Origin: a virus
Lineage: Duplodnaviria; Heunggongvirae; Uroviricota; Caudoviricetes
Reading direction: 5' to 3' (one strand)
Virus record (IMG/VR): IMGVR_UViG_2778261579_000010
Location: 1 to 41,079 of that record
Length of the DNA stretch: 41,079 nt
Below the pieces are notes generated by a model. The model did no database searches, had not been told where the DNA came from, and was given only the letters and a program-made list of their open reading frames with translations. The position numbers were made by a program, and so were the translations under genes. Below, one piece after another: positions 1 to 41,079 of this stretch. Numbering within the stretch: the first letter of the stretch is position 1; the number at the start of each line of letters is the position of its first letter.

Positions 1-933
1 ATGGACAACGACAAAATTGATCAACACAGCGACGAAATTGAAGTTGAGAGCGAAGAAAAAGAGCGCGGCAAAAAAATAGAAATAGATGAAGACCGACTCC
101 CCTCCCGGGCGATGGCAATTCATGAGCATATCCGCCAGGATGGTGAAAAAGAGCTGGAACGCGACGCAATGGCACTACTGTGGTCAGCCATTGCGGCGGG
201 TCTGTCGATGGGCGCTTCATTACTGGCAAAAGGGATATTTCATGTCGAACTGGAAGGTGTGCCGGGCAGCTTCTTGCTGGAGAATCTCGGTTATACCTTT
301 GGTTTTATTATCGTCATTATGGCCCGCCAGCAATTATTTACCGAAAACACCGTGACTGCGGTACTACCCGTCATGCAAAAACCGACAATAAGCAACGTTG
401 GCTTACTTATGCGGTTATGGGGCGTCGTGCTGCTGGGTAATATTCTCGGGACAGGTATTGCGGCGTGGGCATTTGAATATATGCCAATCTTCAATGAAGA
501 AACTCGCGATGCATTTGTCAAAATCGGCATGGATGTGATGAAGAACACCCCCAGCGAGATGTTTGCCAACGCGATCATTTCCGGCTGGCTGATCGCCACT
601 ATGGTTTGGATGTTTCCTGCAGCGGGTGCGGCAAAGATTGTGGTGATTATATTGATGACCTGGCTTATTGCCCTGGGTGACACCACTCACATCGTTGTCG
701 GTTCTGTTGAAATCCTCTATCTGGTGTTTAACGGTACGCTGCACTGGAGCGATTTCATCTGGCCCTTCGCACTACCTACTTTAGCGGGGAACATCTGCGG
801 CGGCACCTTTATCTTCGCGTTAATGAGTCATGCACAGATCCGTAACGACATGAGCAACAAGCGCAAAGCAGAAGCACGCCAAAAAGCAGAACGTGCGGAA
901 AACATTAAGAAAAATGATAAAAACCCGGCATAA
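1..933 (+). CDS. yfdC: Formate/nitrite-transporter-family inner membrane protein YfdC (host gene flanking argW)
   Basis: 310-aa ORF; near-identical over its whole length to E. coli YfdC as recalled; multiple hydrophobic helices; sits immediately upstream of tRNA-Arg as in K-12. Confidence 0.9.
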   Translation: MDNDKIDQHSDEIEVESEEKERGKKIEIDEDRLPSRAMAIHEHIRQDGEKELERDAMALLWSAIAAGLSMGASLLAKGIFHVELEGVPGSFLLENLGYTFGFIIVIMARQQLFTENTVTAVLPVMQKPTISNVGLLMRLWGVVLLGNILGTGIAAWAFEYMPIFNEETRDAFVKIGMDVMKNTPSEMFANAIISGWLIATMVWMFPAAGAAKIVVIILMTWLIALGDTTHIVVGSVEILYLVFNGTLHWSDFIWPFALPTLAGNICGGTFIFALMSHAQIRNDMSNKRKAEARQKAERAENIKKNDKNPA

Positions 934-1008
934 ATGGCGAGGGTTTAAGCAATCGAGCGGCAGTGTACTTACCCCGCAGTACATTAGCGGGTATACTCAT
1001 GCCGCATT

Positions 1009-1083
1009 GTCCTCTTAGTTAAATGGATATAACGAGCCCCTCCTAAGGGCTAATTGCAGGTTCGATTCCTGCAGGGGACACCA
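1009..1083 (+). tRNA. argW: tRNA-Arg (anticodon CCU), prophage attachment tRNA
   Basis: 75-nt cloverleaf: acceptor GTCCTCT, T-arm GCAGG-TTCGATT-CCTGC, anticodon loop CCTCCTAAG, 3' ACACCA; matches argW as recalled. Confidence 0.85.
1069..1083 (+). repeat. attL core (CTGCAGGGGACACCA) at the tRNA 3' end
   Basis: Exact 15-bp direct repeat with 39376..39390; the next base differs (T here, G at the right end). Confidence 0.8.
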
Positions 1084-1196
1084 TTTATCAGTTCGCTCCC
1101 ATCCGTAGCAGTCCGCAAAATCCCCTGAATATCAAGCCTTCCGTAGATTCACAGTTCGTCATGGTTCGCGTCAGATCGTTGACAGCCGCACACCAT

Positions 1197-1246
1197 GACG
1201 GGTAAAAAGTGGATAAAATAATTTTACCCACCGGATTTTTACCCAT
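1197..1246 (+). promoter_or_regulatory. Candidate integrase arm-type sites (GGGTAAAA / TTTTACCC motifs) in attL
   Basis: Three copies of the motif within 50 bp just upstream of int (cgGGTAAAAag, aaTTTTACCCac, tTTTTACCCat); the same motif recurs twice near attR. Confidence 0.3.
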
Positions 1247-2402
1247 GCTCACCGTTAAGCAGATTGAAGCAGCAAAGCCGAAAGAAAAACCATACCGCCT
1301 TCTCGATGGTAATGGCCTGTACCTTTATGTCCCTGTATCCGGGAAAAAGGTATGGCAGCTTCGCTACAAGATTGACGGTAAGGAAAAAATACTGACCGTA
1401 GGAAAATATCCGCTAATGACTTTGCAGGAGGCAAGAGATAAAGCATGGACCGCGAGGAAAGACATCTCGGTTGGCATCGATCCGGTAAAAGCGAAAAAGG
1501 CTTCGTCTAACAACAATTCCTTTAGTGCGATTTACAAGGAATGGTACGAGCACAAGAAGCAAGTCTGGTCAGTAGGCTATGCAAACGAACTTGCCAAAAT
1601 GTTTGACGACGACATTTTACCCATCATCGGCGGCCTTGAAATTCAGGATATTGAGCCGATGCAACTGCTGGAAGTAATCCGCAGATTTGAAGATCGCGGT
1701 GCAATGGAGCGAGCCAACAAAGCCCGCAGAAGATGCGGAGAGGTTTTCCGTTACGCTATTGTCACCGGAAGGGCTAAATATAACCCGGCACCTGACCTTG
1801 CAGACGCCATGAAAGGATACCGCAAGAAGAACTTCCCGTTTCTTCCTGCAGACCAGATCCCGGCATTCAACAAAGCACTGGCAACATTTTCAGGAAGTAT
1901 CGTATCGCTTATTGCGACTAAAGTTTTACGCTACACCGCCCTAAGAACGAAAGAACTTCGTTCCATGCTATGGAAGAACGTCGATTTTGAAAACAGGATT
2001 ATCACCATCGACGCCAGTGTGATGAAGGGTCGCAAGATTCATGTAGTACCGATGTCAGACCAGGTAGTTGAACTTCTCACTACGCTAAGCTCAATCACCA
2101 AACCAGTATCAGAGTTTGTTTTTGCCGGGCGCAACGATAAGAAGAAGCCAATCTGCGAGAACGCGGTGCTACTTGTGATCAAACAAATCGGCTATGAGGG
2201 TCTGGAAAGCGGTCACGGATTCAGGCATGAATTCAGTACGATTATGAACGAGCACGAATGGCCTGCTGACGCTATTGAAGTGCAACTTGCACATGCCAAC
2301 GGCGGATCTGTGCGCGGGATTTACAACCATGCTCAGTATCTCGATAAGCGCAGAGAAATGATGCAGTGGTGGGCGGATTGGCTTGATGAAAAGGTGGAGT
2401 GA
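1245..2402 (+). CDS. intS: Tyrosine recombinase, P4-family prophage integrase (IntS-like)
   Basis: ORF directly downstream of argW; N-terminus MLTVKQIEAAKPKEKPYRLLDGNGLYLYV and C-terminal HGFRHEF...H..Y catalytic region typical of P4-type integrases; the first ATG gives 385 aa (an in-frame GTG at 1209 would add 12 codons). Confidence 0.9.
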   Translation: MLTVKQIEAAKPKEKPYRLLDGNGLYLYVPVSGKKVWQLRYKIDGKEKILTVGKYPLMTLQEARDKAWTARKDISVGIDPVKAKKASSNNNSFSAIYKEWYEHKKQVWSVGYANELAKMFDDDILPIIGGLEIQDIEPMQLLEVIRRFEDRGAMERANKARRRCGEVFRYAIVTGRAKYNPAPDLADAMKGYRKKNFPFLPADQIPAFNKALATFSGSIVSLIATKVLRYTALRTKELRSMLWKNVDFENRIITIDASVMKGRKIHVVPMSDQVVELLTTLSSITKPVSEFVFAGRNDKKKPICENAVLLVIKQIGYEGLESGHGFRHEFSTIMNEHEWPADAIEVQLAHANGGSVRGIYNHAQYLDKRREMMQWWADWLDEKVE

Positions 2403-2487: not shown

Positions 2488-4206
2488 TCACGATGAGGCT
2501 GTCCATTGAGGCATTGTTAATGTCCACTTATTAATCTCACTCCAATATGTTGCAGTGAATGAAGCGGTCTTTATTTGAGTTGTATTAGCGCCAGTAACAT
2601 CAACAGGAACACCAGCGAAGGAAAGAGCGGCGATATTAGAGCCTCGAACCATCATATTTATCTCTTGTCCGTCATACGGAGTTCCTGTTAACGTAATATT
2701 AAGTCCCGTCGTAACGTTCATACGATAACTACGAAAACCCTCCCTTATTTTTATCGGAAGGGTTTCTGCTGTGTATTGCTTAACCGAGCCTGGCCCCATA
2801 TCAAGCTCTAAGCCATCAACCACACCAAGTTTATCCAGGAATGCCCCCCATATCTTCCCCCCATCGGCTTTACCGTTATTTCCTGATAAAACATTGAATA
2901 CCCCAATGCTTCTATCTGCCGGATTAAATGGACCAATATCAAAATGGTTTGCGCCTGATATTCTCCATTGTGATTCACCGATATTAAGGCTGAAATGTAG
3001 TGGCCCGCTTGAGAAGTAGTAACTACCTGCTGCCAGTGCAATATCTGATACGCCATTACGTTCAAAATATGCGCCCGATATGTAAGTGCTAACACCGGAA
3101 TCAAGAAGTCCATATTTAGCAGTGTTCTGGAAGAAACCGCCAACAATGTTGATAGAAGCAGTGGGCAGCAAATCCTGTCCTTCCGGGAAGTTGAAATCAC
3201 CGTTCATACCGTTAAATATTACAGTGTCGTAATCTGGTAGTGGCCCCAAATGGTCCGCACTATACCCGATGTGGTCTTTTAAGGTTACGGCGTTAACGCC
3301 ATTCCGCAGCATACGACGGACACTCCCTGTACCCCCGTTCAGAATCTCTACATTATCAAGCCGCATTCCGTAGCTGTAATGCTCAATTAACAAGCCAGTA
3401 CAGTTAGTACCTAGACCCATATCAATCCACATGTCACTGATAAGACTGTTATTTCGAACATCATAACCGTGGAAACCGATACAGTTTTTAAAGCCATTCA
3501 AACTGATACGTAATCCGTAGGCTTTAAAATTTCTTACGGTTGTTCCGATATCCTGGGACGACGCTCTCATAACTGTAACACCATCAGCACCAGCTTTTAA
3601 TAACGCACGAGGATGGAACATAATTCTTAAATGCTGATTTGGTTTAAAAGTATCTGCTGTTGTTTTAACAGTGTACTCGCCCTCATTAAAGTAGACACAA
3701 CCACCCGCCGCCAGAATCGTATTAATCTGCGCGTTGGTCATTGTCGGGTAGATGTTTGTTAGTGGGAAAACCCCTTTTTTGATGGCGTAATCCTCAAATA
3801 CACTACCCCCACCGTGTGAACTTCCAACTAATTTGTCCCCTCCAGAAGATGCCAATCTCTTCTCAAACTGATCAGGGTCATACTTCAGAACATTCGGAAA
3901 ATAGAACTGCTGCGCACCATACGCATCATAAACAGCCATAGAGTGGCCTTGCACAGTTACGAACTTGGCAATCTGTCCGTTATATACCGGATATCCAGCA
4001 GCGTTAATGATGATTGGCTGTGCAACAGGAACGTGAGAGCCATCTTCGTTCTCCACATAAACCTGAATCTGGTTTTCAGGATTTACCGGGTCAGTGTCAA
4101 TTTTACCGATATAAATTTTGCCATTGGCAACCGCTTTAAAAGAACGCGCCATAGTGAAGAGTTGTGAAGGCATGCTTACCACAACATTGGCTGTAATGTC
4201 TGTCAT
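2488..4206 (-). CDS. Tailspike protein with P22/Sf6-type N-terminal head-binding domain and a distinct receptor-binding domain
   Basis: 572 aa; first ~115 aa ([34 protein letters not shown]...VLKYDPDQF) match the conserved P22-family tailspike head-binding domain; the remainder is unrelated to the P22 endorhamnosidase as recalled. Confidence 0.85.
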
Positions 4207-4229
4207 TTAATTTGCTCCAGATACAAGGA

Positions 4230-4330
4230 ATCGCCGCAGCGTGGCTACGGTTGGTATTTGTTTGGTTTTTGAACTACGAAAATTTCGTAGTGCCATCCAT
4301 CAAGGCCATCGCCGCAGCGTGGCTACGGTG
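4230..4330. repeat. Two ~22-bp direct repeats (ATCGCCGCAGCGTGGCTACGGT) flanking a palindrome
   Basis: Copies at 4230..4251 and 4309..4330, each preceded by CAAGG; palindrome GAACTACGAAAATTTCGTAGT at about 4271..4291 lies between them; intergenic between tailspike and ant. Confidence 0.6.
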
Positions 4331-4342
4331 AATTTTGGGCAT

Positions 4343-4384: not shown

Positions 4385-5320
4385 TCAGTAGTTATGTACT
4401 GAAGGAGGTAATTCTTTATTCTTAAGTCTCATCCATGCGGAAAGATTCGCTGGTCCGTCTGGCTCATTAATATCAACATCTCGTGTGTGATTAATTAAAA
4501 CGTCTCTCGCCATTCCGATAACATACGAGAACTCATGACCGTAGTCGTAGCATCTCCCGGAATAGTTCGATTGAATTTGTTTTAATGCCGGATACAGTTC
4601 GCGGAATAATGCCTGTGAACGGTTGGCATAATCCCATAACCATACAAGGCTGTTTGCTTCTTTTGCAGAAAGCTCGTCGGTTTTCTTCTCTTGTTTGCCA
4701 ATGAACTCACCTTCAAGTGGAACTCGAGCTGCAAGTGATAGTGCTTCGGTAAACTGCTCCTCACTGATCTCTTTGTACGAACATCCAAAATGGGATTTCA
4801 GTGACGACCACATGGTGATCATCGCCTTAGCCTGTTTTTCTTTTGGCAGAGACTGACCGCGACTCATGACGAGCTGTTTAATGGCTTCCTGCTGTTCAGT
4901 GGTGATTTTACCCGGCAACGCCTTTTTAGCTTTGCGTGGATTAACTACATGGCCTTTAGTCCAGTAGTCATGCAGCACGCTAAAGCATTCCTCCTGGTAC
5001 TGAATCAGTTTATCACGGATGTCAGCACGAACTTTCTCAGGGTTGATGCTGAACAGCCATCCATTTAACTTCTTCAAAGGAAGGCAGAGTAGCTTACGAA
5101 GCTTCCCATCAGCGGCAACCATGTTCATATGAACACAGTTGAATTTGCTAATCTGCTTCATGAGTTTTGTTTGCTGCGTTGACCAGCTCATTCCAAGGTT
5201 TTGAACGATTGGCTTCATCGCAACATATGCAACTCCGGCAGCCATAGCGGTGATAATTTGCTGACCGTTGAATGGTACGTAAGAGGTGTTCACTGCTTCT
5301 AAAATTGCTATACTATTCAT
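4385..5320 (-). CDS. ant: Antirepressor Ant (P22 immI type)
   Basis: N-terminus [43 protein letters not shown] matches P22 Ant as recalled; preceded by arc; start taken at the ATG with an upstream GGAG (the ORF extends in frame to 5386). Confidence 0.8.
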
Positions 5321-5388
5321 GTTGGTTTTTCTCCACGGATTTACTGACAACCGAAGCCCTGACTGTTCCCGCAGTTGGGGCTTCAACT

Positions 5389-5550
5389 TTACGCGCCAAT
5401 GCGCCCTTCCTTCTTAAAGCTTTCCATTACTCTCTGATAAATCTCAGAGTTAACAGACCGACCATTCTCTTCCGCCACCTTGCGGACCAAATCCAATACT
5501 TCTTTAGGCCACCGCAAATTGAACTGCGGCATTTTTCTTGCACCTTGCAT
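5389..5550 (-). CDS. arc: Arc repressor (ribbon-helix-helix)
   Basis: 53-aa ORF not in the supplied track: [53 protein letters not shown], near-identical to P22 Arc as recalled. Confidence 0.85.
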
Positions 5551-5643
5551 ATTCAACTCCACTTCATTAAATGGTATTACCGTACTACTATTGAAAGCGT
5601 ACTACTACCGTTCTACCATGTCAATAAATAAAAGGAGAATGAC
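5551..5643. promoter_or_regulatory. Divergent Pant / Pmnt promoter-operator region of immI
   Basis: 93-bp gap between divergent arc and mnt; contains the repeated motif CGTACTACTA (5580s and 5600s). Confidence 0.5.
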
Positions 5644-5886
5644 GTGGCTAGAAATGATCCGCAATTCAACGTAAGAATGCCAGATGAGATAAAACAGCAA
5701 CTTACGCATATTGCTGCAACAAATCGCCGCTCGATAAATGCAGAGATTATTTCAGCTATCGAACTGTGGATAAAAATTCATAAAGAGCAGCTAATACCTT
5801 CAAGTAGTCGAATCCTGACAAAGTCAGAGCAAGAAGCGCTTGATGTAGCTATCGATGTGTTAAAACGTGTGAGAGATGAGGGATAA
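5644..5886 (+). CDS. mnt: Mnt-like ribbon-helix-helix repressor
   Basis: 80 aa; N-terminus MARNDPQFNVRMPDEIKQQL resembles P22 Mnt (MARDDPHFNFRMP...); GTG start with AGGAG 8 nt upstream; divergent from arc-ant. Confidence 0.75.
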   Translation: MARNDPQFNVRMPDEIKQQLTHIAATNRRSINAEIISAIELWIKIHKEQLIPSSSRILTKSEQEALDVAIDVLKRVRDEG

Positions 5887-5888
5887 CC

Positions 5889-6134
5889 ATGGAGCAACAA
5901 CAAGGGTCGCCATTATCATTGATAATTATGGTGATTTTTTTCGTTTTCATCTTTTTTATACCTGCTTTAAAAATATCCAAGAAAGCTGGTTTTGACTGGA
6001 AGATGGCGGTATGTTTAACAATCCCTGGATTCAACGTGGTTGCGTGGCTAGCACTTGCGTTCATGGATTGGCCAATTCATAAGTATCTACCAAAAGACAT
6101 GAATGGGATCATGAGCAAAACTAAGGAGAGTTAA
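5889..6134 (+). CDS. Small membrane protein with two predicted transmembrane helices (mnt-operon cargo)
   Basis: 81 aa; hydrophobic stretches LSLIIMVIFFVFIFFIPAL and VVAWLALAF; GAGGGA RBS; start overlaps the mnt stop. Confidence 0.6.
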   Translation: MEQQQGSPLSLIIMVIFFVFIFFIPALKISKKAGFDWKMAVCLTIPGFNVVAWLALAFMDWPIHKYLPKDMNGIMSKTKES

Positions 6135-6138
6135 CCAT

Positions 6139-6624
6139 ATGAAAAAATCACTGTTAATTATCCCGCTTCTGCTGGCTGGATGCGCAAAAGTAAGTGACTA
6201 CCAAGCAAGTTGCGAACAACGCTATCAAAAGCTTAGCGATATGGCTAATTGCCTTGATGCCAGCGTGAAGAACGACTCACGCATGGCATCAGCACCAACA
6301 CCTAAGCTGTATGTCCTTGCTGCGAAGATGCTCGGACAAGGTGTCGATGAAGGAAAGATAAGTGACGCGCAGGCAAGACTTGAGCTTCAGAATCTTTATG
6401 TTCAATTACAAAGCCAAGAACAAGCCCAACAAATAGCGCAAAGCCAAGCATTCCAGCAGGCTTTATTGAATTATCAGGCTGTAAACACAATGCAAGCGAT
6501 CGAGCAAAAAGCGAGGCAGCCTGTTATAACTCAACCTTACCCAACGCGTGTTGACACCTATACAAACTGCAATTCAGGATTTGGAAATACCGTCACATGC
6601 AACAGTAGCAGCAACATTAGATAA
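6139..6624 (+). CDS. Predicted lipoprotein (signal peptide with lipobox LLAGC), Gln-rich C-terminal half
   Basis: 161 aa; MKKSLLIIPLLLAGC lipobox; AAGGAG RBS; in the P22 sieA position between the ejection genes and immI. Confidence 0.65.
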   Translation: MKKSLLIIPLLLAGCAKVSDYQASCEQRYQKLSDMANCLDASVKNDSRMASAPTPKLYVLAAKMLGQGVDEGKISDAQARLELQNLYVQLQSQEQAQQIAQSQAFQQALLNYQAVNTMQAIEQKARQPVITQPYPTRVDTYTNCNSGFGNTVTCNSSSNIR

Positions 6625-6626
6625 AG

Positions 6627-8741
6627 CTATTCATATTCATTCATACCGCTTAACGAGGCGACAATACCAGCTCTCGACAAGCGATTGAATTCATCGCTAC
6701 CAATAGCATCGCGTATTGCTTTTACGGCGGCCTTATTTGCCATAAATCTGCGTTCCGCCGCCGCTAATGCTTCTTTGCTTCCGCCTGCTCTTACTGCTTT
6801 GGTGGCTTCCTGAACAGCTTTCTCTATCGCATATCGACCACTACGTGTGGTGGCAATTTTAGATACAGCGCCTTTTAACCCAGCGCCAACTAAAGCACCC
6901 GCGGCAGCGCCTGCAATGCCCCCTCCAGCGCCACCAACAATGGCACCTGATGTTGAGTTGGCAATTGCATTTAACACCGTTGATGTGACGTTGGATAAAC
7001 CAGCATCCAGATCGCGTAGTACATTGGCAGTTCTCCCTGTTCTTTCAATATACTGCTGAGGTTTCACTGCCGCTCTTGCAAGAGTGCCATATGCATCAGC
7101 AATTCTTCCAAGTTCTGAGGAATATCTGCTAATGGCTTTTACATTTTGTGGGGTAAGTATCCCTGCGATATGGTTAATTCCTGCTGCATCAGATTTGCCA
7201 CCACGTACACCATGCGAGATAGCATCCTGCAACATTGATGATATAGCAGGAACACGCTCTGATTCTGGCAGCGCGCGGATCATAGAATGGAATCCAGCAG
7301 GACCATTAAGACCTTTAGCTGACGATGCTTGAAGAGATTTTACTCCATTCGTAATCAGTGCATCTGTTGCCAAATCACGCCCAAAAACAGACTCTGCACT
7401 CTCTTGTGCGGATAGCCTCGCTTTAGACAGATCATTAGCTTTTTGCCAGTCATCAAAAAATCCGCCGTTTTCCGCCATTGTGCGCATATCATCAGTAATT
7501 GCCCGACGTATTTCCCCTGCTCTCCTTGCCGCATTTGCCTCTCCACTACGCTTATATTTTTGCTCCGCATCAGCAAATTTCGCTCTCCATGCTTTCATGC
7601 CATCAAATGTTACTCCACCTTGATTGTTTGCCTGAACAAACTGTTTCATTTCAGGAGTAAGCGGTATGCCAGCAGATCGCTCTGCCTGAATAACGGCATT
7701 ACCATTTAGCATTCTTGCTTTTTGATTTGGCATTGTTGACCGCACGTCATCCCATGCCGCGCGCTCAGCATCCTTCATCTGATCAAGATTTTGAAGAATC
7801 CTTTGTTTTATAGCCGCACTTTTTTCTGATGCCGTTCCAGATGCGGCCCCAAATTCATCAAGGTTTCGACTTAACTTTGATGATATTTCGTTAAATGCTG
7901 CCTGATGGGCATCCTGAACAATCCCTGGTGTTGATGCCAATGCGCCTTCGGCTTGTGCAATTCCACGACTTCCAGATCGCATTCCTGGTGTTAATGCGTT
8001 TATATCAATTCCAGCAGACTCAGCCGCTTTTGCTACATCTTCGGACACATTAGCGGCCTGACTGGCAATTGACTGACGCCCAGCACCTGACTTTGCCATC
8101 TTGGAAACATCATTAGCAGAATTCAGTGCTGCACCACCAAGAGCCTGTGAAACCCTTGGCGCAATAACGCGCCCGACACCTGAAAGAACGCCTTGAGCAC
8201 CAATATTGATACCACCGTTAATGGCAGCATTTTGTGCAAAATCACCCTCCTGATTTGCAGCATCAGCAAGAGAACCGGCAATCATGTTTCCTGCGGAACC
8301 GATGTCTCCTGCGAGCTTTGCTGGCGCTCCAGCAGCTTTTGCTGCTGTGCCAATTGGCAGGAGATACCCACCAATTGTTTCACCGGCTTGCGCATAAGGG
8401 TCTGTCGGTCGATCGACTGGACGATAGACATCATCCAAAACCTTGGGGCCACCAAGCCCCTGGCTGATTGCATTAATCAGACTTGCGCCACCCTGCAATA
8501 CGTCAAATGGTATGTTTACCAGACCACGGCCAGCCTGTTCTGCAATTTGCCCTGCGCTTTGACCACCAGTGAGCCAGTCAGTGGCTTTTCCTACCAGAGA
8601 TTGTTCTTCTGGCTGCGATTGGTTTTGAGTGGATTGATCACCAGAAGACAGCATCTGAGCAATGCGACGTGCTCCCTCAGTATCGCCGGCAGCATCAGCA
8701 TTCCTTAACGCCGTCATCAACTGTTCGCGACTATAGGCCAT
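6627..8741 (-). CDS. Ejection (injection) protein, P22 gp16-like
   Basis: 704 aa, Ala/Gly-rich; last of three consecutive ejection-protein ORFs in P22 gene order (7-20-16). Confidence 0.7.
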
Positions 8742-10006
8742 TACTGCCCTCCGAGATATTTATTAATCAGGTCATCATCAGAAAGCTGCTGTTGAGACGG
8801 TTGTATGTCCTTCCCGTATTTCTGTTGCATACGTTTCTGAGCCATCTCAGTGGTTTTTATGATTGTTTTGATAGCTGCTCTGGCTGATTTTTCAGACTGA
8901 TTTGGGGACAAACTACCAATAGCATCCATTACCTTTTGCCCCTCGGCATTACTTAAAGCCCCCATCCCTTTCATCTGCTGAATGCCAGATAAGAATCCCT
9001 GAGATTTCAGTGTGTCAACCAGAGTTTCTGTATCAGCAGCCTCTGTTCCTGGAATGAATCTACTCGATAGTGGGTTTAGGTTTGTTCCGAAATATCCAGT
9101 GAATCCTGGGCTATTAAGAACTTTTGTAGCCGTCTCTATCGTTCTGGAGAGATTATCCATTCCAGAGTTGTACGCATCGGCCTTATCTCGCTTTGCCTGC
9201 TCCATAGCTTGCTGATTCTGCAATCTCTTGTCCTGCAATTCAGCAAGTTTTAAGGCATTAGTTTCATTTGCGATGAGTCTGTCGTATTTCTTGTCCTCTA
9301 ATTCCATCCGACGAAGATTGACATTTTGTTGCGCAATATTGTTGCTTGCCCACCCTCTGGCATTTGTCATGTCATTATTACGGATTGTTTCGTTAATTCT
9401 TTGCTGATCCTGCTGGCGGCCAACCATCTTGTCCTGAACATTGAAGTAATCAATCGGGCCAAGAGCAGCCATTCCGAGGTGATCAACAAACTCACCAAAT
9501 CCTGAAGGATTCTGCTGATACATCTGAGCAACGCTGTTAGGGTCAACACCGACGCGAGTCAGTTCCTTGGCGTTGTTTTGCAGCCATGATTGCATTGCTT
9601 CTGGAGACGATGACGCAAGGCGTGCGCCAGCCGCTAAGGAGCCGATAGAATTACGCTGATCTTCATCAATGAATCCCATGCCTTTACGAACGGATTCAAT
9701 CTGTTCTGGATATTGAGTAGCCAACTGACGCAAAGCACCGCGATCACCAGACGCATAAGCATTAGCGTATGCCTGCTGAAATTCTTTCTGCCGCTGAGCC
9801 TGCTTTTCCTGCTGAAACACCCCCGCAATACCTGAAAGGCCTTGCAAAGCAGTCAGCCCAACATTGTTAGCGCCTGAACGCTCAATATCATTGTTCTGCC
9901 TGATAAGCTGAAGCGTATTGCCGATGTCATTTACGCTCGGAGCGTTTGAGTTGACGCCGCCGATACCAGCCAACAATCCGCCATTTGATCCTTGCCAAGT
10001 AGCCAT
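8741..10006 (-). CDS. Ejection protein, P22 gp20-like
   Basis: 421 aa; position and composition match the middle ejection protein of P22-like phages. Confidence 0.7.
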
Positions 10007-10015
10007 GATTACCCC

Positions 10016-10708
10016 TTAAAACAACGAACCAAGCAATCCGATACCAGCACCAATGCCAGCGCCCCAAGGTGTTGATGTCCCCAAAAGGCTGGCAAGACCT
10101 GCACCGGCAATCGCACCAGACGTTCCGCCACTAATTGCTGTCTGAAGACTTGATGGTTTGTTGGCATTAGCAGCGGCAAGAGCTGCGCTTTGCTGTGCAA
10201 TGCTGCTCATGTTGTTGGCGTACGTCTGCCCGGCGTTTGCCTGACCTTGCAGAGCACCAAGCCCAACGTTTGCCAGATTGTTGTAATTGCTCATCTGGTT
10301 TGATAACCAAGACTGACCGAGAGTCGGCGCGATCGTAGCCAGTTGATTGCTTGTGGCTGTCGAACCAAGTCCTCCCGTAGCCTCCGCAGCAGCAAGACTC
10401 TGGTAACGCGCCTGACCTGCAAGGTCTTTATACTGCTGAGAATCGTAATACTGATTAAGTGCCTGCCCCTGACCTTCTAAACTGGAAAGATTCTGAAGCT
10501 GGTTAACATACTGCTCCGCAAGAGGCGTGAACGGAGCAAGGTTTTTCATGATCGTCTGCCACTGCTGATTTTGCAGGTCTGCGGCATACTTCTGAGCTTC
10601 TGCTGCATACTTTGCGCTTTTATCAGAGCTACCACCTTTCCCGCCTTTTTCATGGCAATAAGGTTCCTCGCCGCGCAGTTTTCTGCCCAGCTTAAATGCA
10701 TATAACAT
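10016..10708 (-). CDS. Ejection protein, P22 gp7-like
   Basis: 230 aa; N-terminus MLYAFKLGRKLRGEEP and Gly/Ala-rich C-terminus as in P22 gp7. Confidence 0.75.
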   Translation of the reverse strand: MLYAFKLGRKLRGEEPYCHEKGGKGGSSDKSAKYAAEAQKYAADLQNQQWQTIMKNLAPFTPLAEQYVNQLQNLSSLEGQGQALNQYYDSQQYKDLAGQARYQSLAAAEATGGLGSTATSNQLATIAPTLGQSWLSNQMSNYNNLANVGLGALQGQANAGQTYANNMSSIAQQSAALAAANANKPSSLQTAISGGTSGAIAGAGLASLLGTSTPWGAGIGAGIGLLGSLF

Positions 10709-39831: not shown

Positions 39832-41079
39832 CTATATTGCTGAAGGTACAGGCGTTTCCATAACTATTTGCTCGCGTTTTTTACTCAGGAAGAAAATGCC
39901 AAATAGCAACATCAGGCAGACAATACCCGAAATTGCGAAGAAAACTGTCTGGTAGCCTGCGTGGTCAAAGAGTATCCCAGTCGGCGTTGAAAGCAGCACA
40001 ATCCCAAGCGAACTGGCAATTTGAAAACCAATCAGAAAGATCGTCGACGACAGGCGCTTATCAAAGTTTGCCACGCTGTATTTGAAGACGGATATGACAC
40101 AAAGTGGAACCTCAATGGCATGTAACAGCTTCACTAATGAAATAATCCAGGGGTTAACGAACAACGCGCAGGAAAGGATACGCAACGCCATAATCACAAC
40201 ACCGATAAGTAATGCATTTTTTGGCCCTACCCGATTCACAAAGAAAGGAATAATCGCCATGCACAGCGCTTCGAGTACCACCTGGAATGAGTTGAGATAA
40301 CCATACAGGCGCGTTCCTACATCGTGTGATTCGAATAAACCTGCATAAAAGACAGGAAAGAGTTGTTGATCAAAAATGTTATAGAAAGACCACGTCCCCA
40401 CAATAAATATGACGAAAACCCAGAAGTTTCGATCCTTGAAAACTGCGATAAAATCCTCTTTTTTTACCCCTCCCGCATCCGCCGCTATGCACTGGTGATC
40501 CTTATCTTTAAAACGCATGTTGATCATCATAAATACAGCGCCAAATAGCGAGACCAACCAGAAGTTGATATGGGGACTGATACTAAAAAATATGCCGGCA
40601 AAGAACGCGCCAATAGCATAGCCAAAAGATCCCCAGGCGCGCGCTGTTCCATATTCGAAATGAAAATTTCGCGCCATTTTTTCAGTGAAGCTGTCAAGCA
40701 AACCACATCCCGCCAGATACCCCAGGCCAAAAAAGAGCGCCCCCAGAATTAGACCTACAGAAAAATTGCTTTGCAGTAACGGTTCATAAACGTAAATCAT
40801 AAACGGTCCGGTCAAGACCAGAATGAAACTCATACACCAGATGAGCGGTTTCTTCAGACCGAGTTTATCCTGAACGATGCCGTAGAACATCATAAATAGA
40901 ATGCTGGTAAACTGGTTGACCGAATAAAGTGTACCTAATTCCGTCCCTGTTAATCCTAGATGTCCTTTCAGCCAAATAGCGTATAACGACCACCACAGCG
41001 ACCAGGAAATAAAAAAGAGAAATGAGTAACTGGATGCAAAACGATAGTATGCATTTCTGAATGGAATATTCAGTGCCAT
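39832..41079 (-). CDS. cscB: Sucrose:H+ symporter CscB (LacY-family MFS permease)
   Basis: 415 aa, 12 predicted TM helices; N-terminus MALNIPFRNAYYRFASSYSFLFFISWSLWWSLYAIWLKGHLGLTG matches CscB as recalled; start codon is the last triplet of the window. Confidence 0.85.
   Translation of the reverse strand: MALNIPFRNAYYRFASSYSFLFFISWSLWWSLYAIWLKGHLGLTGTELGTLYSVNQFTSILFMMFYGIVQDKLGLKKPLIWCMSFILVLTGPFMIYVYEPLLQSNFSVGLILGALFFGLGYLAGCGLLDSFTEKMARNFHFEYGTARAWGSFGYAIGAFFAGIFFSISPHINFWLVSLFGAVFMMINMRFKDKDHQCIAADAGGVKKEDFIAVFKDRNFWVFVIFIVGTWSFYNIFDQQLFPVFYAGLFESHDVGTRLYGYLNSFQVVLEALCMAIIPFFVNRVGPKNALLIGVVIMALRILSCALFVNPWIISLVKLLHAIEVPLCVISVFKYSVANFDKRLSSTIFLIGFQIASSLGIVLLSTPTGILFDHAGYQTVFFAISGIVCLMLLFGIFFLSKKREQIVMETPVPSAI

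What the first reader, a model, noticed from the sequence alone, without database searches (positions are those of the whole stretch)
5644..6624. Two-gene cargo (small TM protein plus lipoprotein) transcribed with mnt in the P22 sieA position
Downstream of the lysogen-expressed mnt repressor, in the same orientation and tightly coupled, lie an 81-aa two-TM protein and a 161-aa lipoprotein (lipobox LLAGC, Gln-rich C-terminus). They converge on the ejection-protein genes. This is where P22 carries sieA. Neither protein is recognisable to me. A membrane/lipoprotein pair expressed from Pmnt looks like a superinfection-exclusion or DNA-entry-blocking module.
Basis: partly seen in the sequence, partly recalled or inferred. 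Interest (0 to 1): 0.65.

Follow-up and report, generated by a model that had tools for sequence, protein, structure and literature searches.

The report
Prophage envelope genes in sieA slot
An E. coli P22-like prophage carries, behind its mnt repressor gene and exactly where phage P22 keeps its exclusion gene sieA, a small membrane protein and an uncharacterised lipoprotein; the lipoprotein family fills this slot in about 3% of complete E. coli genomes and is a plausible, untested blocker of phage DNA entry.

Summary
An mnt-like gene (5644-5886), an 81-aa two-TM protein (5889-6134) and a 161-aa lipoprotein (6139-6624) lie head-to-tail with 2- and 4-nt gaps. They converge on the gp16-type ejection gene, with stop codons 2 nt apart, inside a complete P22-type immI region (arc, ant, sar RNA).

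The "two-gene cargo" reading is only partly right, because the genes are independent mosaic modules.
- **Lipoprotein (phrog_6067):** found in 186 of 5426 complete E. coli genomes and in P22-like prophages of at least ten enterobacterial genera. It always sits next to gene 16, is sometimes the only gene between 16 and the tailspike, and never co-occurs with SieA.
- **TM protein (phrog_32536):** found in 33 genomes, normally linked to this mnt allele. The two genes are adjacent in only about 8-9 genomes, and the recombination joint lies inside the 3' end of the TM gene.

Both genes are under strong purifying selection. Neither resembles SieA, Cor or any Pfam, PADLOC or PDB entry. A confident model shows a four-helix bundle, a 50-residue helix and a Cys-bridged hairpin, with no informative structural neighbour. 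Published RNA-seq shows that a 98%-identical copy is transcribed in a lysogen.

Superinfection exclusion is the best-supported function (about 0.45). It rests on position and analogy and has not been tested.

The parts
5563..5643 (.). arc/mnt divergent control region. It holds a 20-nt imperfect inverted repeat (5571-5590 / 5600-5619) and the only sigma-70-like site on the + strand (5591-5619, TTGAAA-17-TACCAT), which is the candidate Pmnt.
   Evidence: Layout is analogous to the P22 Pant/Pmnt/operators. Promoter function is inferred.
5644..5886 (+). mnt-like ribbon-helix-helix repressor gene (80 aa).
   Evidence: Pfam Arc E 1.7e-12. 45% identical to P22 Mnt residues 1-40. No match to the Mnt C-terminal domain family.
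5889..6134 (+). 81-aa two-TM membrane protein (phrog_32536). The C-terminal approximately 10 residues are specific to this recombinant.
6100..6138 (+). Recombination joint and lipoprotein leader. Similarity to other lipoprotein loci starts about 30 nt before the ATG, inside the TM ORF, and includes the AAGGAGAG ribosome-binding site.
6139..6624 (+). 161-aa lipoprotein (phrog_6067). Features: signal peptide and lipobox (C15, Ala at +2), four-helix bundle with C25/C38, long Gln-rich helix 76-125, and a C-terminal beta-hairpin with C144/C154.
6627..8741 (-). gp16-type DNA-ejection protein gene, convergent with the lipoprotein gene (context).
   Evidence: phrog_770 E 1.9e-216. Convergent large ORF in 78 of 80 related loci.
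5389..5562 (-). arc repressor gene (context: immI region).
   Evidence: Pfam Arc E 1e-30
5321..5388 (+). sar antisense RNA across the arc-ant junction (context).
   Evidence: Rfam RF00262, 95.6 bits, E 1.4e-20
4385..5386 (-). ant antirepressor gene (context).
   Evidence: Pfam P22_AR_N and P22_AR_C

Best explanation
**What it is.** The region is the lysogen-expressed arm of the immI region of a P22-like (Lederbergvirus) prophage integrated at argW. One transcript, most likely from Pmnt, reads the mnt-like repressor gene, then a small two-TM inner-membrane protein, then a lipoprotein.

**How the parts relate.** The two cargo genes are separate accessory genes that recombination has placed together.
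- The lipoprotein is the constant element. It belongs to an uncharacterised family that fills the gene-16-proximal 'sieA slot' of P22-like prophages across Enterobacterales.
- In this window it has lost its own upstream region, so it depends on read-through from upstream.

**Proposed mechanism (inferred, not shown).**
1. After signal peptidase II processing, the lipoprotein is lipid-anchored. Ala at +2 points to the inner leaflet of the outer membrane.
2. Its disulfide-stabilised helical bundle, roughly 75 Angstrom helix and Cys hairpin project into the periplasm.
3. There it binds a conserved component needed by incoming P22-like phages. Candidates are the gp7/gp20/gp16 ejection conduit or needle, or a host outer-membrane secondary receptor.
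4. This blocks DNA delivery, giving superinfection exclusion that replaces SieA.
5. The two-TM protein would act independently at the inner membrane, in the manner of SieA or T4 Imm.

**Shown:** gene structure, coupling, family membership, synteny, exclusivity with SieA, purifying selection, and lysogen transcription of a near-identical copy.

**Inferred:** the promoter, localisation, target and phenotype.
For: - **Anatomy and coupling:**
- **P22 map:** it places sieA and orf59a in the same slots.
- **Fixed position:** the lipoprotein lies between the tailspike gene and gene 16 in all 80 viral contigs. Its stop is 2-90 nt from a convergent gp16-type ORF in 74 of 78 loci. The position is the same in Morganella and Yersinia prophages that lack immI.
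- **Restricted to P22-like phages:** among 50,697 phage records, only five P22-like phages carry it.
- **Exclusive with SieA:** types A and B are absent from the window and from all lipoprotein or TM loci.
- **Prevalence in complete E. coli genomes:** 186 of 5426 for the lipoprotein against 21 for HS1-type sieA.
- **Export signals:** the lipobox Cys is nearly invariant (>=90%) and the internal cysteines C25 and C38 invariant across 45 distant homologues.
- **Constraint:** dN/dS is 0.03-0.04.
- **Expression:** the Gally copy is transcribed in the lysogen (PMC9928086, tables S1 and S4).
- **Context of distant homologues:** they lie in mobile elements beside restriction-modification, AIPR and TIR genes, or beside giant polyvalent proteins, which are reported from the literature (own knowledge, not read here) to be delivered with the DNA.
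- **Precedent:** SieA works by blocking the gp20/gp16 conduit (PMC10883804).
Against: - No homologue has a tested phenotype.
- There is no sequence or fold similarity to SieA, Cor, Llp or any defence model.
- A nearly invariant lipoprotein (>=98% identical) sits next to at least three very different gp16 alleles. There is therefore no sign of co-evolution with the neighbouring ejection protein.
- Its strong conservation is unlike SieA, whose types share less than 30% identity.
- In Gally, expression in LB fell just below the authors' threshold for calling an accessory gene. It rose in macrophages together with four neighbouring genes, which would equally fit a host-adaptation role.
- The promoter assignment rests on one weak consensus match.
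Confidence: 0.45

Rival explanations
1. Host-fitness lysogenic conversion. The lipoprotein, and possibly the TM protein, changes envelope properties for the bacterium's benefit, such as survival in macrophages or serum, or stress tolerance. Lambda Bor and Iss are precedents. It would have no role against phages.
For: The Gally copy rises from log2 about 6.1 in LB to 10.3 in macrophages at 1 h. The N-domain is highly conserved across genera, which suggests a conserved host target. No known anti-phage domain is present.
Against: The family is confined to one slot of one phage type in Enterobacterales, whereas general fitness genes spread among phage types. It is exclusive with SieA. All five right-end Gally genes, including the tailspike gene, were induced together, so the induction may be regional rather than specific.
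Confidence: 0.25
2. Obligate two-component exclusion system. The TM protein and the lipoprotein work together as one module spanning the inner membrane and the periplasm.
For: The 4-nt spacing and shared transcript in the window. Eight or nine E. coli genomes keep exactly this arrangement. The T4 Imm/Sp pair is an analogy (own knowledge).
Against: Only 1 of 80 viral contigs has both genes. The counts are 186 against 33 genomes, with about 8-9 shared. Other loci place different small envelope genes, or none, before the lipoprotein. The joint lies inside the TM ORF.
Confidence: 0.07
3. Lytic-cycle accessory. The lipoprotein helps the phage's own infection or release, for example by protecting progeny from adsorbing to debris, helping the ejection proteins or modulating lysis.
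For: It always lies next to the ejection-gene cluster. T5 Llp has a dual role of this kind (own knowledge).
Against: It is transcribed opposite to the late operon and in the lysogen. It is absent from most P22-like phages (only 5 phage records). It is exported to the periplasm, whereas virions assemble in the cytoplasm.
Confidence: 0.1
4. The mnt-like gene and the TM gene form a toxin-antitoxin-like addiction pair, with a ribbon-helix-helix antitoxin and a small membrane toxin.
For: The 2-nt spacing and strict linkage of the TM gene to this mnt allele. Ribbon-helix-helix proteins are common antitoxins, with weak FitA and RelB matches.
Against: The full P22 immI layout (arc, ant, sar, operators) shows that the gene occupies the Mnt role. 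In Pectobacterium and Pluralibacter the TM gene is separated from mnt or has no mnt at all.
Confidence: 0.04

Closest known systems
P22 SieA (types A, B and C; Leavitt et al. 2024, PMC10883804)
   Same: Same slot (next to gene 16, convergent, between genes 16 and 9), the same strand as mnt, prophage-expressed, an envelope protein, and similar length (164 against 161 aa). The two are mutually exclusive in the loci examined.
   Different: SieA is a multi-pass inner-membrane protein with the motif FxRYPxEAxxFNK and its own promoter. The lipoprotein has no TM helix beyond its signal peptide, no motif and no detectable similarity. The lipoprotein is far more conserved than the SieA types are to one another.
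Cor (phi80, N15, HK022) and Llp (T5) outer-membrane exclusion lipoproteins
   Same: Small phage-encoded lipoproteins that block DNA entry from the periplasmic side of the outer membrane. This is the working analogy.
   Different: They target FhuA and siphoviruses. The only match to the Cor PHROG is E 0.03 over the signal peptide. Size and fold differ.
Ltp of Streptococcus phage TP-J34
   Same: A prophage lipoprotein with a helical domain that stops DNA injection by binding a phage injection component, the tape measure protein (cited in PMC10883804).
   Different: Gram-positive host and an unrelated sequence. Ltp is surface-exposed rather than periplasmic.
T4 Imm and Sp
   Same: A small two-TM inner-membrane protein and a second envelope protein, each of which blocks DNA entry independently. 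This is an analogy for TM81 plus the lipoprotein (own knowledge).
   Different: No sequence similarity was found (tblastn of the TM protein against phages hit only phage Emek). Imm and Sp belong to a lytic phage and are not a prophage operon.
Lambda Bor / Iss and plasmid TraT / TrbK lipoproteins
   Same: Lipoproteins encoded by mobile elements and expressed in the carrier cell. They act in serum resistance or in surface and entry exclusion (own knowledge).
   Different: No similarity was detected in Pfam, PHROG or NCBIfam scans.

Membership tests
SieA (P22-like superinfection exclusion protein) | Sequence similarity to type A (P22) or type B (HS1) SieA | tested here: not met
   BLASTP found no alignment for the lipoprotein and E 2.6 for the TM protein. 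tblastn with both SieA types found no hit anywhere in the window.
SieA (P22-like superinfection exclusion protein) | Conserved cytoplasmic motif FxRYPxEAxxFNK | tested here: not met
   A six-frame regex search of the 80 lipoprotein-bearing viral contigs plus the P22 control found the motif only in P22. It is also visible in the HS1 SieA translation. It is absent from both window proteins, whose sequences were read directly.
SieA (P22-like superinfection exclusion protein) | Multi-pass inner-membrane topology (three or four TM helices) | tested here: not met
   The hydropathy scan gives two segments for the TM protein and none for the mature lipoprotein.
SieA (P22-like superinfection exclusion protein) | Location between the gene 16 and gene 9 homologues of a P22-like prophage | tested here: met
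SieA (P22-like superinfection exclusion protein) | Blocks DNA injection by P22-like phages | not testable with these tools
   Needs plating, potassium-efflux or DNA-entry assays.
phrog_6067 (unknown function) | Full-length HMM match | tested here: met
   E 2.8e-110 over residues 1-161 of 161. All 45 diverse homologues match the same PHROG.
phrog_32536 (unknown function) | HMM match | tested here: met
   E 4.8e-52 over residues 1-73 of 77.
Bacterial lipoprotein (signal peptidase II substrate) | Basic n-region, hydrophobic h-region and lipobox [LVI][ASTVI][GAS]C | tested here: met
   The sequence is MKKSLLIIPLLLAG|C. C15 is invariant in 28 close homologues and conserved in at least 90% of 45 distant ones. 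Actual lipidation was not tested.
Bacterial lipoprotein (signal peptidase II substrate) | Inner-membrane retention signal (Asp at +2) | tested here: not met
   Position +2 is Ala (Val or Thr in some homologues). Outer-membrane sorting by Lol is inferred from the E. coli rule.
Mnt repressor | N-terminal Arc/Mnt ribbon-helix-helix domain | tested here: met
   Pfam Arc E 1.7e-12. 45% identity to P22 Mnt residues 1-40, E 2e-13.
Mnt repressor | C-terminal Mnt tetramerisation domain (PF11423) | tested here: not met
   Not among the Pfam matches at E<=1. The alignment with P22 Mnt stops at residue 40.
Mnt repressor | Divergent from arc-ant, with sar RNA and operator-like repeats | tested here: met
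Cor superinfection exclusion lipoprotein (phrog_1119) | HMM match over the mature protein | tested here: not met
   E 0.03, covering residues 1-31 only, which is the signal peptide.

The most novel reading that the evidence does not exclude
The phrog_6067 lipoprotein is a new class of periplasmic, outer-membrane-anchored superinfection-exclusion factor. It would stop assembly of the P22-type trans-envelope ejection conduit and would be the main functional replacement for SieA in E. coli. Its distant relatives next to polyvalent proteins (reported to be injected with the DNA) and defence genes would then be entry-exclusion factors of other mobile elements.
Probability: 0.3. Interest if true: 0.7.

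Novelty: new variant of a known kind. Interest (0 to 1): 0.5.

Why it matters
- **An open question in P22 biology.** By the 2024 SieA study's count, about a third of sequenced P22-like phages carry sieA (22 of 66). What fills that slot elsewhere has not been examined.
- **A common, specific candidate.** One uncharacterised lipoprotein family is the commonest occupant found here in E. coli. It is in 3.4% of complete genomes, about nine times more than HS1-type sieA.
- **It is conserved and expressed.** The family is found from Escherichia to Morganella and Yersinia, and a near-identical copy is transcribed in a lysogen.
- **If it excludes phages,** it would be a new exclusion family acting from the periplasmic side on podovirus DNA delivery. 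It would give a tool for dissecting the gp7/gp20/gp16 conduit, and a resistance factor relevant to typing or therapy with O-antigen-specific podoviruses.
- **If it is a host-adaptation factor instead,** it would be an overlooked accessory gene of prophage Gally in the Crohn's-associated strain LF82, which was reported to have none.

Tried and rejected
- **Family and defence libraries.** Pfam, NCBIfam and PADLOC scans of both proteins gave only sub-threshold noise: GspK, Per1 and ZorA at E 0.001-0.1.
- **Solved structures by sequence.** A PDB profile search found nothing below E 1.
- **AlphaFold database search.** The afdb50 library was unavailable.
- **Species-representative genomes.** The scan returned only three loci, with mixed contexts.
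- **Phage and plasmid searches with distant relatives.** These re-found only the same P22-like elements.
- **Distant ~130-aa relatives.** They are metagenomic singletons without names.
- **Literature.** Searches found no paper on either family.
- **Promoter in the common layout.** The scan of the mnt-lipoprotein spacer found no promoter there.
- **Readings rejected.** SieA homology, Cor homology, an obligate TM-lipoprotein pair, and a toxin-antitoxin reading of mnt plus the TM gene.

Full report
**1. The observation**

The window is a complete P22-like (Lederbergvirus) prophage.
- It is integrated at tRNA-Arg(CCT) (1009-1083).
- It lies between a host formate/nitrite-transporter-family gene and a LacY-family permease gene.

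Reading from the left:

| Feature | Coordinates | Strand |
|---|---|---|
| integrase | 1209-2402 | + |
| tailspike | 2488-4206 | - |
| ant | 4385-5386 | - |
| sar antisense RNA (Rfam RF00262, 95.6 bits) | 5321-5388 | + |
| arc | 5389-5562 | - |
| mnt-like gene | 5644-5886 | + |
| 81-aa ORF | 5889-6134 | + |
| 161-aa ORF | 6139-6624 | + |
| gp16 ejection gene | 6627-8741 | - |
| gp20 ejection gene | 8741-10006 | - |
| gp7 ejection gene | 10016-10708 | - |

- The gaps between the three + strand genes are 2 and 4 nt. Each gene has a Shine-Dalgarno sequence.
- No terminator-like site separates them on the + strand.
- The lipoprotein stop codon and the gp16 stop codon are 2 nt apart.
- Both ORFs are real genes. 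They have full-length PHROG matches (E 4.8e-52 and 2.8e-110) and many homologues. dN/dS is 0.03-0.04 for the lipoprotein and 0.12 for the TM protein. At 81% (TM protein) and 61-65% (lipoprotein) amino-acid identity, synonymous sites are saturated.

**2. Position relative to P22**

In P22 the order is 16 > < sieA (own promoter) < mnt terminator < orf59a < mnt, then arc > ant > 9 >.
- The lipoprotein therefore occupies the sieA slot, and the TM protein occupies the orf59a slot.
- The mnt-like protein shares only its N-terminal ribbon-helix-helix domain with P22 Mnt (45% identity over 40 residues).
- The arc/mnt spacer contains an operator-like inverted repeat that overlaps the only + strand promoter-like site.

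**3. The two cargo genes are separate modules**

*Mosaic structure in sequenced phages*
- Megablast splits the region. The mnt and TM genes are shared with Salmonella phage Emek.
- The lipoprotein gene is shared with phages Gally, 720R6 and VSe13, where it is not joined to mnt.

*Counts in 5426 complete E. coli genomes*

| Element | Genomes |
|---|---|
| lipoprotein gene | 186 |
| TM gene | 33 |
| the whole fused arrangement | 9 |

*Counts in 80 IMG/VR contigs that carry the lipoprotein*
- Only one contig, identical to the window, has the TM gene.

*Usual partners of the TM gene*
- It normally follows this same mnt allele and precedes a 69-aa gene.
- In Pectobacterium and Pluralibacter it also lies between gene 16 and the tailspike gene, with or without mnt.

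*The recombination joint*
- Similarity between the window and other lipoprotein loci begins only about 30 nt before the ATG.
- That point lies inside the 3' end of the TM ORF. The TM protein's last residues (…NGIMSKTKES) are unique to this recombinant.
- The lipoprotein has therefore lost whatever lay upstream of it in other phages. In the window it must be transcribed from further upstream, most simply from Pmnt. This step is inferred.

**4. The lipoprotein family**

*Distribution*
- Close relatives (46-99% identical to the window protein in the alignment) occur in Escherichia, Citrobacter, Serratia, Cronobacter, Klebsiella aerogenes, Pectobacterium, Yersinia, Morganella, Providencia and Tatumella. 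All are annotated as hypothetical.

*Synteny*
- In Morganella and Yersinia ruckeri prophages it is the only gene between gene 16 and the tailspike gene.
- The Morganella copy has a promoter-like site about 30 nt upstream.
- In 78 of 80 viral contigs a large convergent gp16-type ORF follows. The stop-to-stop gap is 2-90 nt in 74 of these.

*Upstream neighbour*
- It is on the same strand in about 72 of 80 contigs, and it varies: an mnt-like gene (37), a 71-aa ORF (14), a 104-aa protein with a signal peptide (7), a 60-aa membrane protein (2) and the TM gene (1).
- The lipoprotein is thus the constant element, sitting behind a variable small-gene position.

*Relation to the neighbouring gp16*
- The lipoprotein is at least 98% identical in all 80 contigs, yet it is linked to at least three very different gp16 alleles.

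*Relation to SieA*
- Types A (P22) and B (E. coli HS) were not found in the window or in any of about 95 related loci.
- HS1-type sieA is in only 21 of 5426 genomes.

*Sequenced phages*
- Among 50,697 phage records only five carry the family, all P22-like.

**5. Remote relatives**

- An exhaustive profile search found 254 representatives. Most are lipoproteins of 125-135 aa that share the N-terminal domain and the C-terminal Cys hairpin.
- None has a Pfam family. Those looked up are unnamed metagenomic singletons.
- Contexts that could be read:
  - Three small integrative islands encode a serine recombinase and a primase. One is next to restriction-modification, AIPR and TIR genes.
  - One locus lies between a polyvalent protein and an MmeI-type restriction enzyme.
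  - One gene converges, 1 nt away, on a 4839-aa polyvalent protein with a MuF_C domain.
  - Two contexts look chromosomal.
- A position beside polyvalent proteins (reported in the literature, from my own knowledge, to be delivered with the DNA) or beside defence genes therefore recurs. The sample is small.

**6. Structure**

- With 45 diverse sequences, AlphaFold2 gives a confident model (pLDDT 90.9, pTM 0.65).
- It consists of a helical bundle (helices 18-28, 32-45, 47-51 and 53-70), a continuous helix from 76 to 125 and a beta-hairpin (140-146 and 152-158).
- C25 and C38 are invariant. C154 and its partner near position 144 are conserved in at least 90% of sequences. This fits two periplasmic disulfides, which is an inference.

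**7. Expression**

Supplementary tables of Misson et al. 2023 (PMC9928086) cover GALLYPH_13 (LF82_138), the 98%-identical copy in prophage Gally of strain LF82.

| Condition | Value |
|---|---|
| LB overnight | 70 normalised reads, against a prophage median of 15.6 (4.5x; the authors' cutoff was 5x) |
| LB | log2 about 6.1 |
| inside macrophages, 1 h | log2 10.3 |
| inside macrophages, 6 h | log2 8.6 |

- The gene is therefore transcribed from the prophage. It narrowly missed being called an accessory gene by the authors.
- Four neighbouring genes, including mnt and the tailspike gene, rise with it.

**8. Interpretation**

*For superinfection exclusion of P22-like phages (confidence about 0.45)*
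- The slot is fixed, next to the ejection genes.
- The family is exclusive with SieA.
- It is restricted to P22-like phages.
- It is exported to the envelope.
- It is expressed in a lysogen.
- Its distant relatives lie in mobile-element and defence contexts.
- SieA sets a precedent, because it blocks the gp20/gp16 conduit.

*Against*
- No experimental data exist for any family member.
- It resembles no known exclusion protein.
- It shows no co-variation with the neighbouring gp16 allele.
- Its induction pattern would equally suit a host-adaptation gene.

*The pair reading*

**9. Novelty**

- Prophage-encoded envelope proteins in this slot, and exclusion lipoproteins in general, are known kinds.
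- This family has no characterised member and no detectable relative among them.
- I rate it a new variant of a known kind, with moderate interest (0.5).
- It is a specific, common and directly testable candidate rather than a demonstrated function.

Noticed in passing
window 5321-5388 (+): A full-length sar antisense RNA (Rfam RF00262, 95.6 bits) lies across the arc-ant junction. The immI regulatory circuit is therefore intact and P22-like. The mechanical TTG start for ant at 5386 is probably too far upstream.
   Followed up: partly
window 6622-6629: The stop codons of the lipoprotein gene and the convergent gp16 gene are 2 nt apart, with no room for a terminator. Lysogenic transcripts should run antisense into gene 16, and late transcripts should run antisense into the lipoprotein gene. 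Other loci have gaps of 13-14 or 90 nt.
   Followed up: partly
window 1-2402 and 39832-41079: The prophage is integrated at tRNA-Arg(CCT) (1009-1083), next to a formate/nitrite-transporter-family gene, and ends before a 415-aa LacY-family permease gene. The integrase gene (1209-2402) sits directly beside the tailspike gene, not at the far end as in the P22 prophage.
   Followed up: partly
L103 (E. coli 203740, NZ_CP025913.1 4549200-4556035): This prophage has two tandem immI-like regions. The first reads mnt, then a 104-aa signal-peptide protein, then the lipoprotein. The second reads mnt, then the TM protein, then a 69-aa gene. It may be an intermediate that could give rise to the window's fused arrangement by deletion.
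   Followed up: no
L014-L093: The position just upstream of the lipoprotein holds different small predicted envelope proteins in different prophages: a 104-aa secreted protein, a 60-aa membrane protein and the 81-aa TM protein. This suggests a variable cassette site for small envelope accessory genes.
   Followed up: no
L104 212-589 and 590-7589: A 125-aa distant homologue of the lipoprotein converges, 1 nt away, on a 4839-aa polyvalent protein (ddrB-ParB, Eco57I-like, helicase, MuF_C). L100 also has a polyvalent protein nearby. This parallels the lipoprotein/gp16 arrangement, because both neighbours are proteins thought to be delivered with the DNA.
   Followed up: partly
L003 2974-3393 (Gally GALLYPH_14; not present in the window): The opposite-strand 139-aa hypothetical gene next to the Gally lipoprotein is the most strongly expressed of the five right-end genes in macrophages (log2 11.0 against about 5.5 in LB). 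Its function is unknown.
   Followed up: no
window 4212-4331: The tailspike-ant intergenic region encodes the peptide IAAAWLR twice in one frame. This implies a direct repeat of about 20 nt, possibly duplicated terminator or regulatory sequence.
   Followed up: no
window 2488-4206 (-): The tailspike is short (572 aa). It has a P22-type head-binding domain (residues 1-113) and a receptor-binding part with no Pfam match, so the O-antigen specificity is unknown.
   Followed up: no
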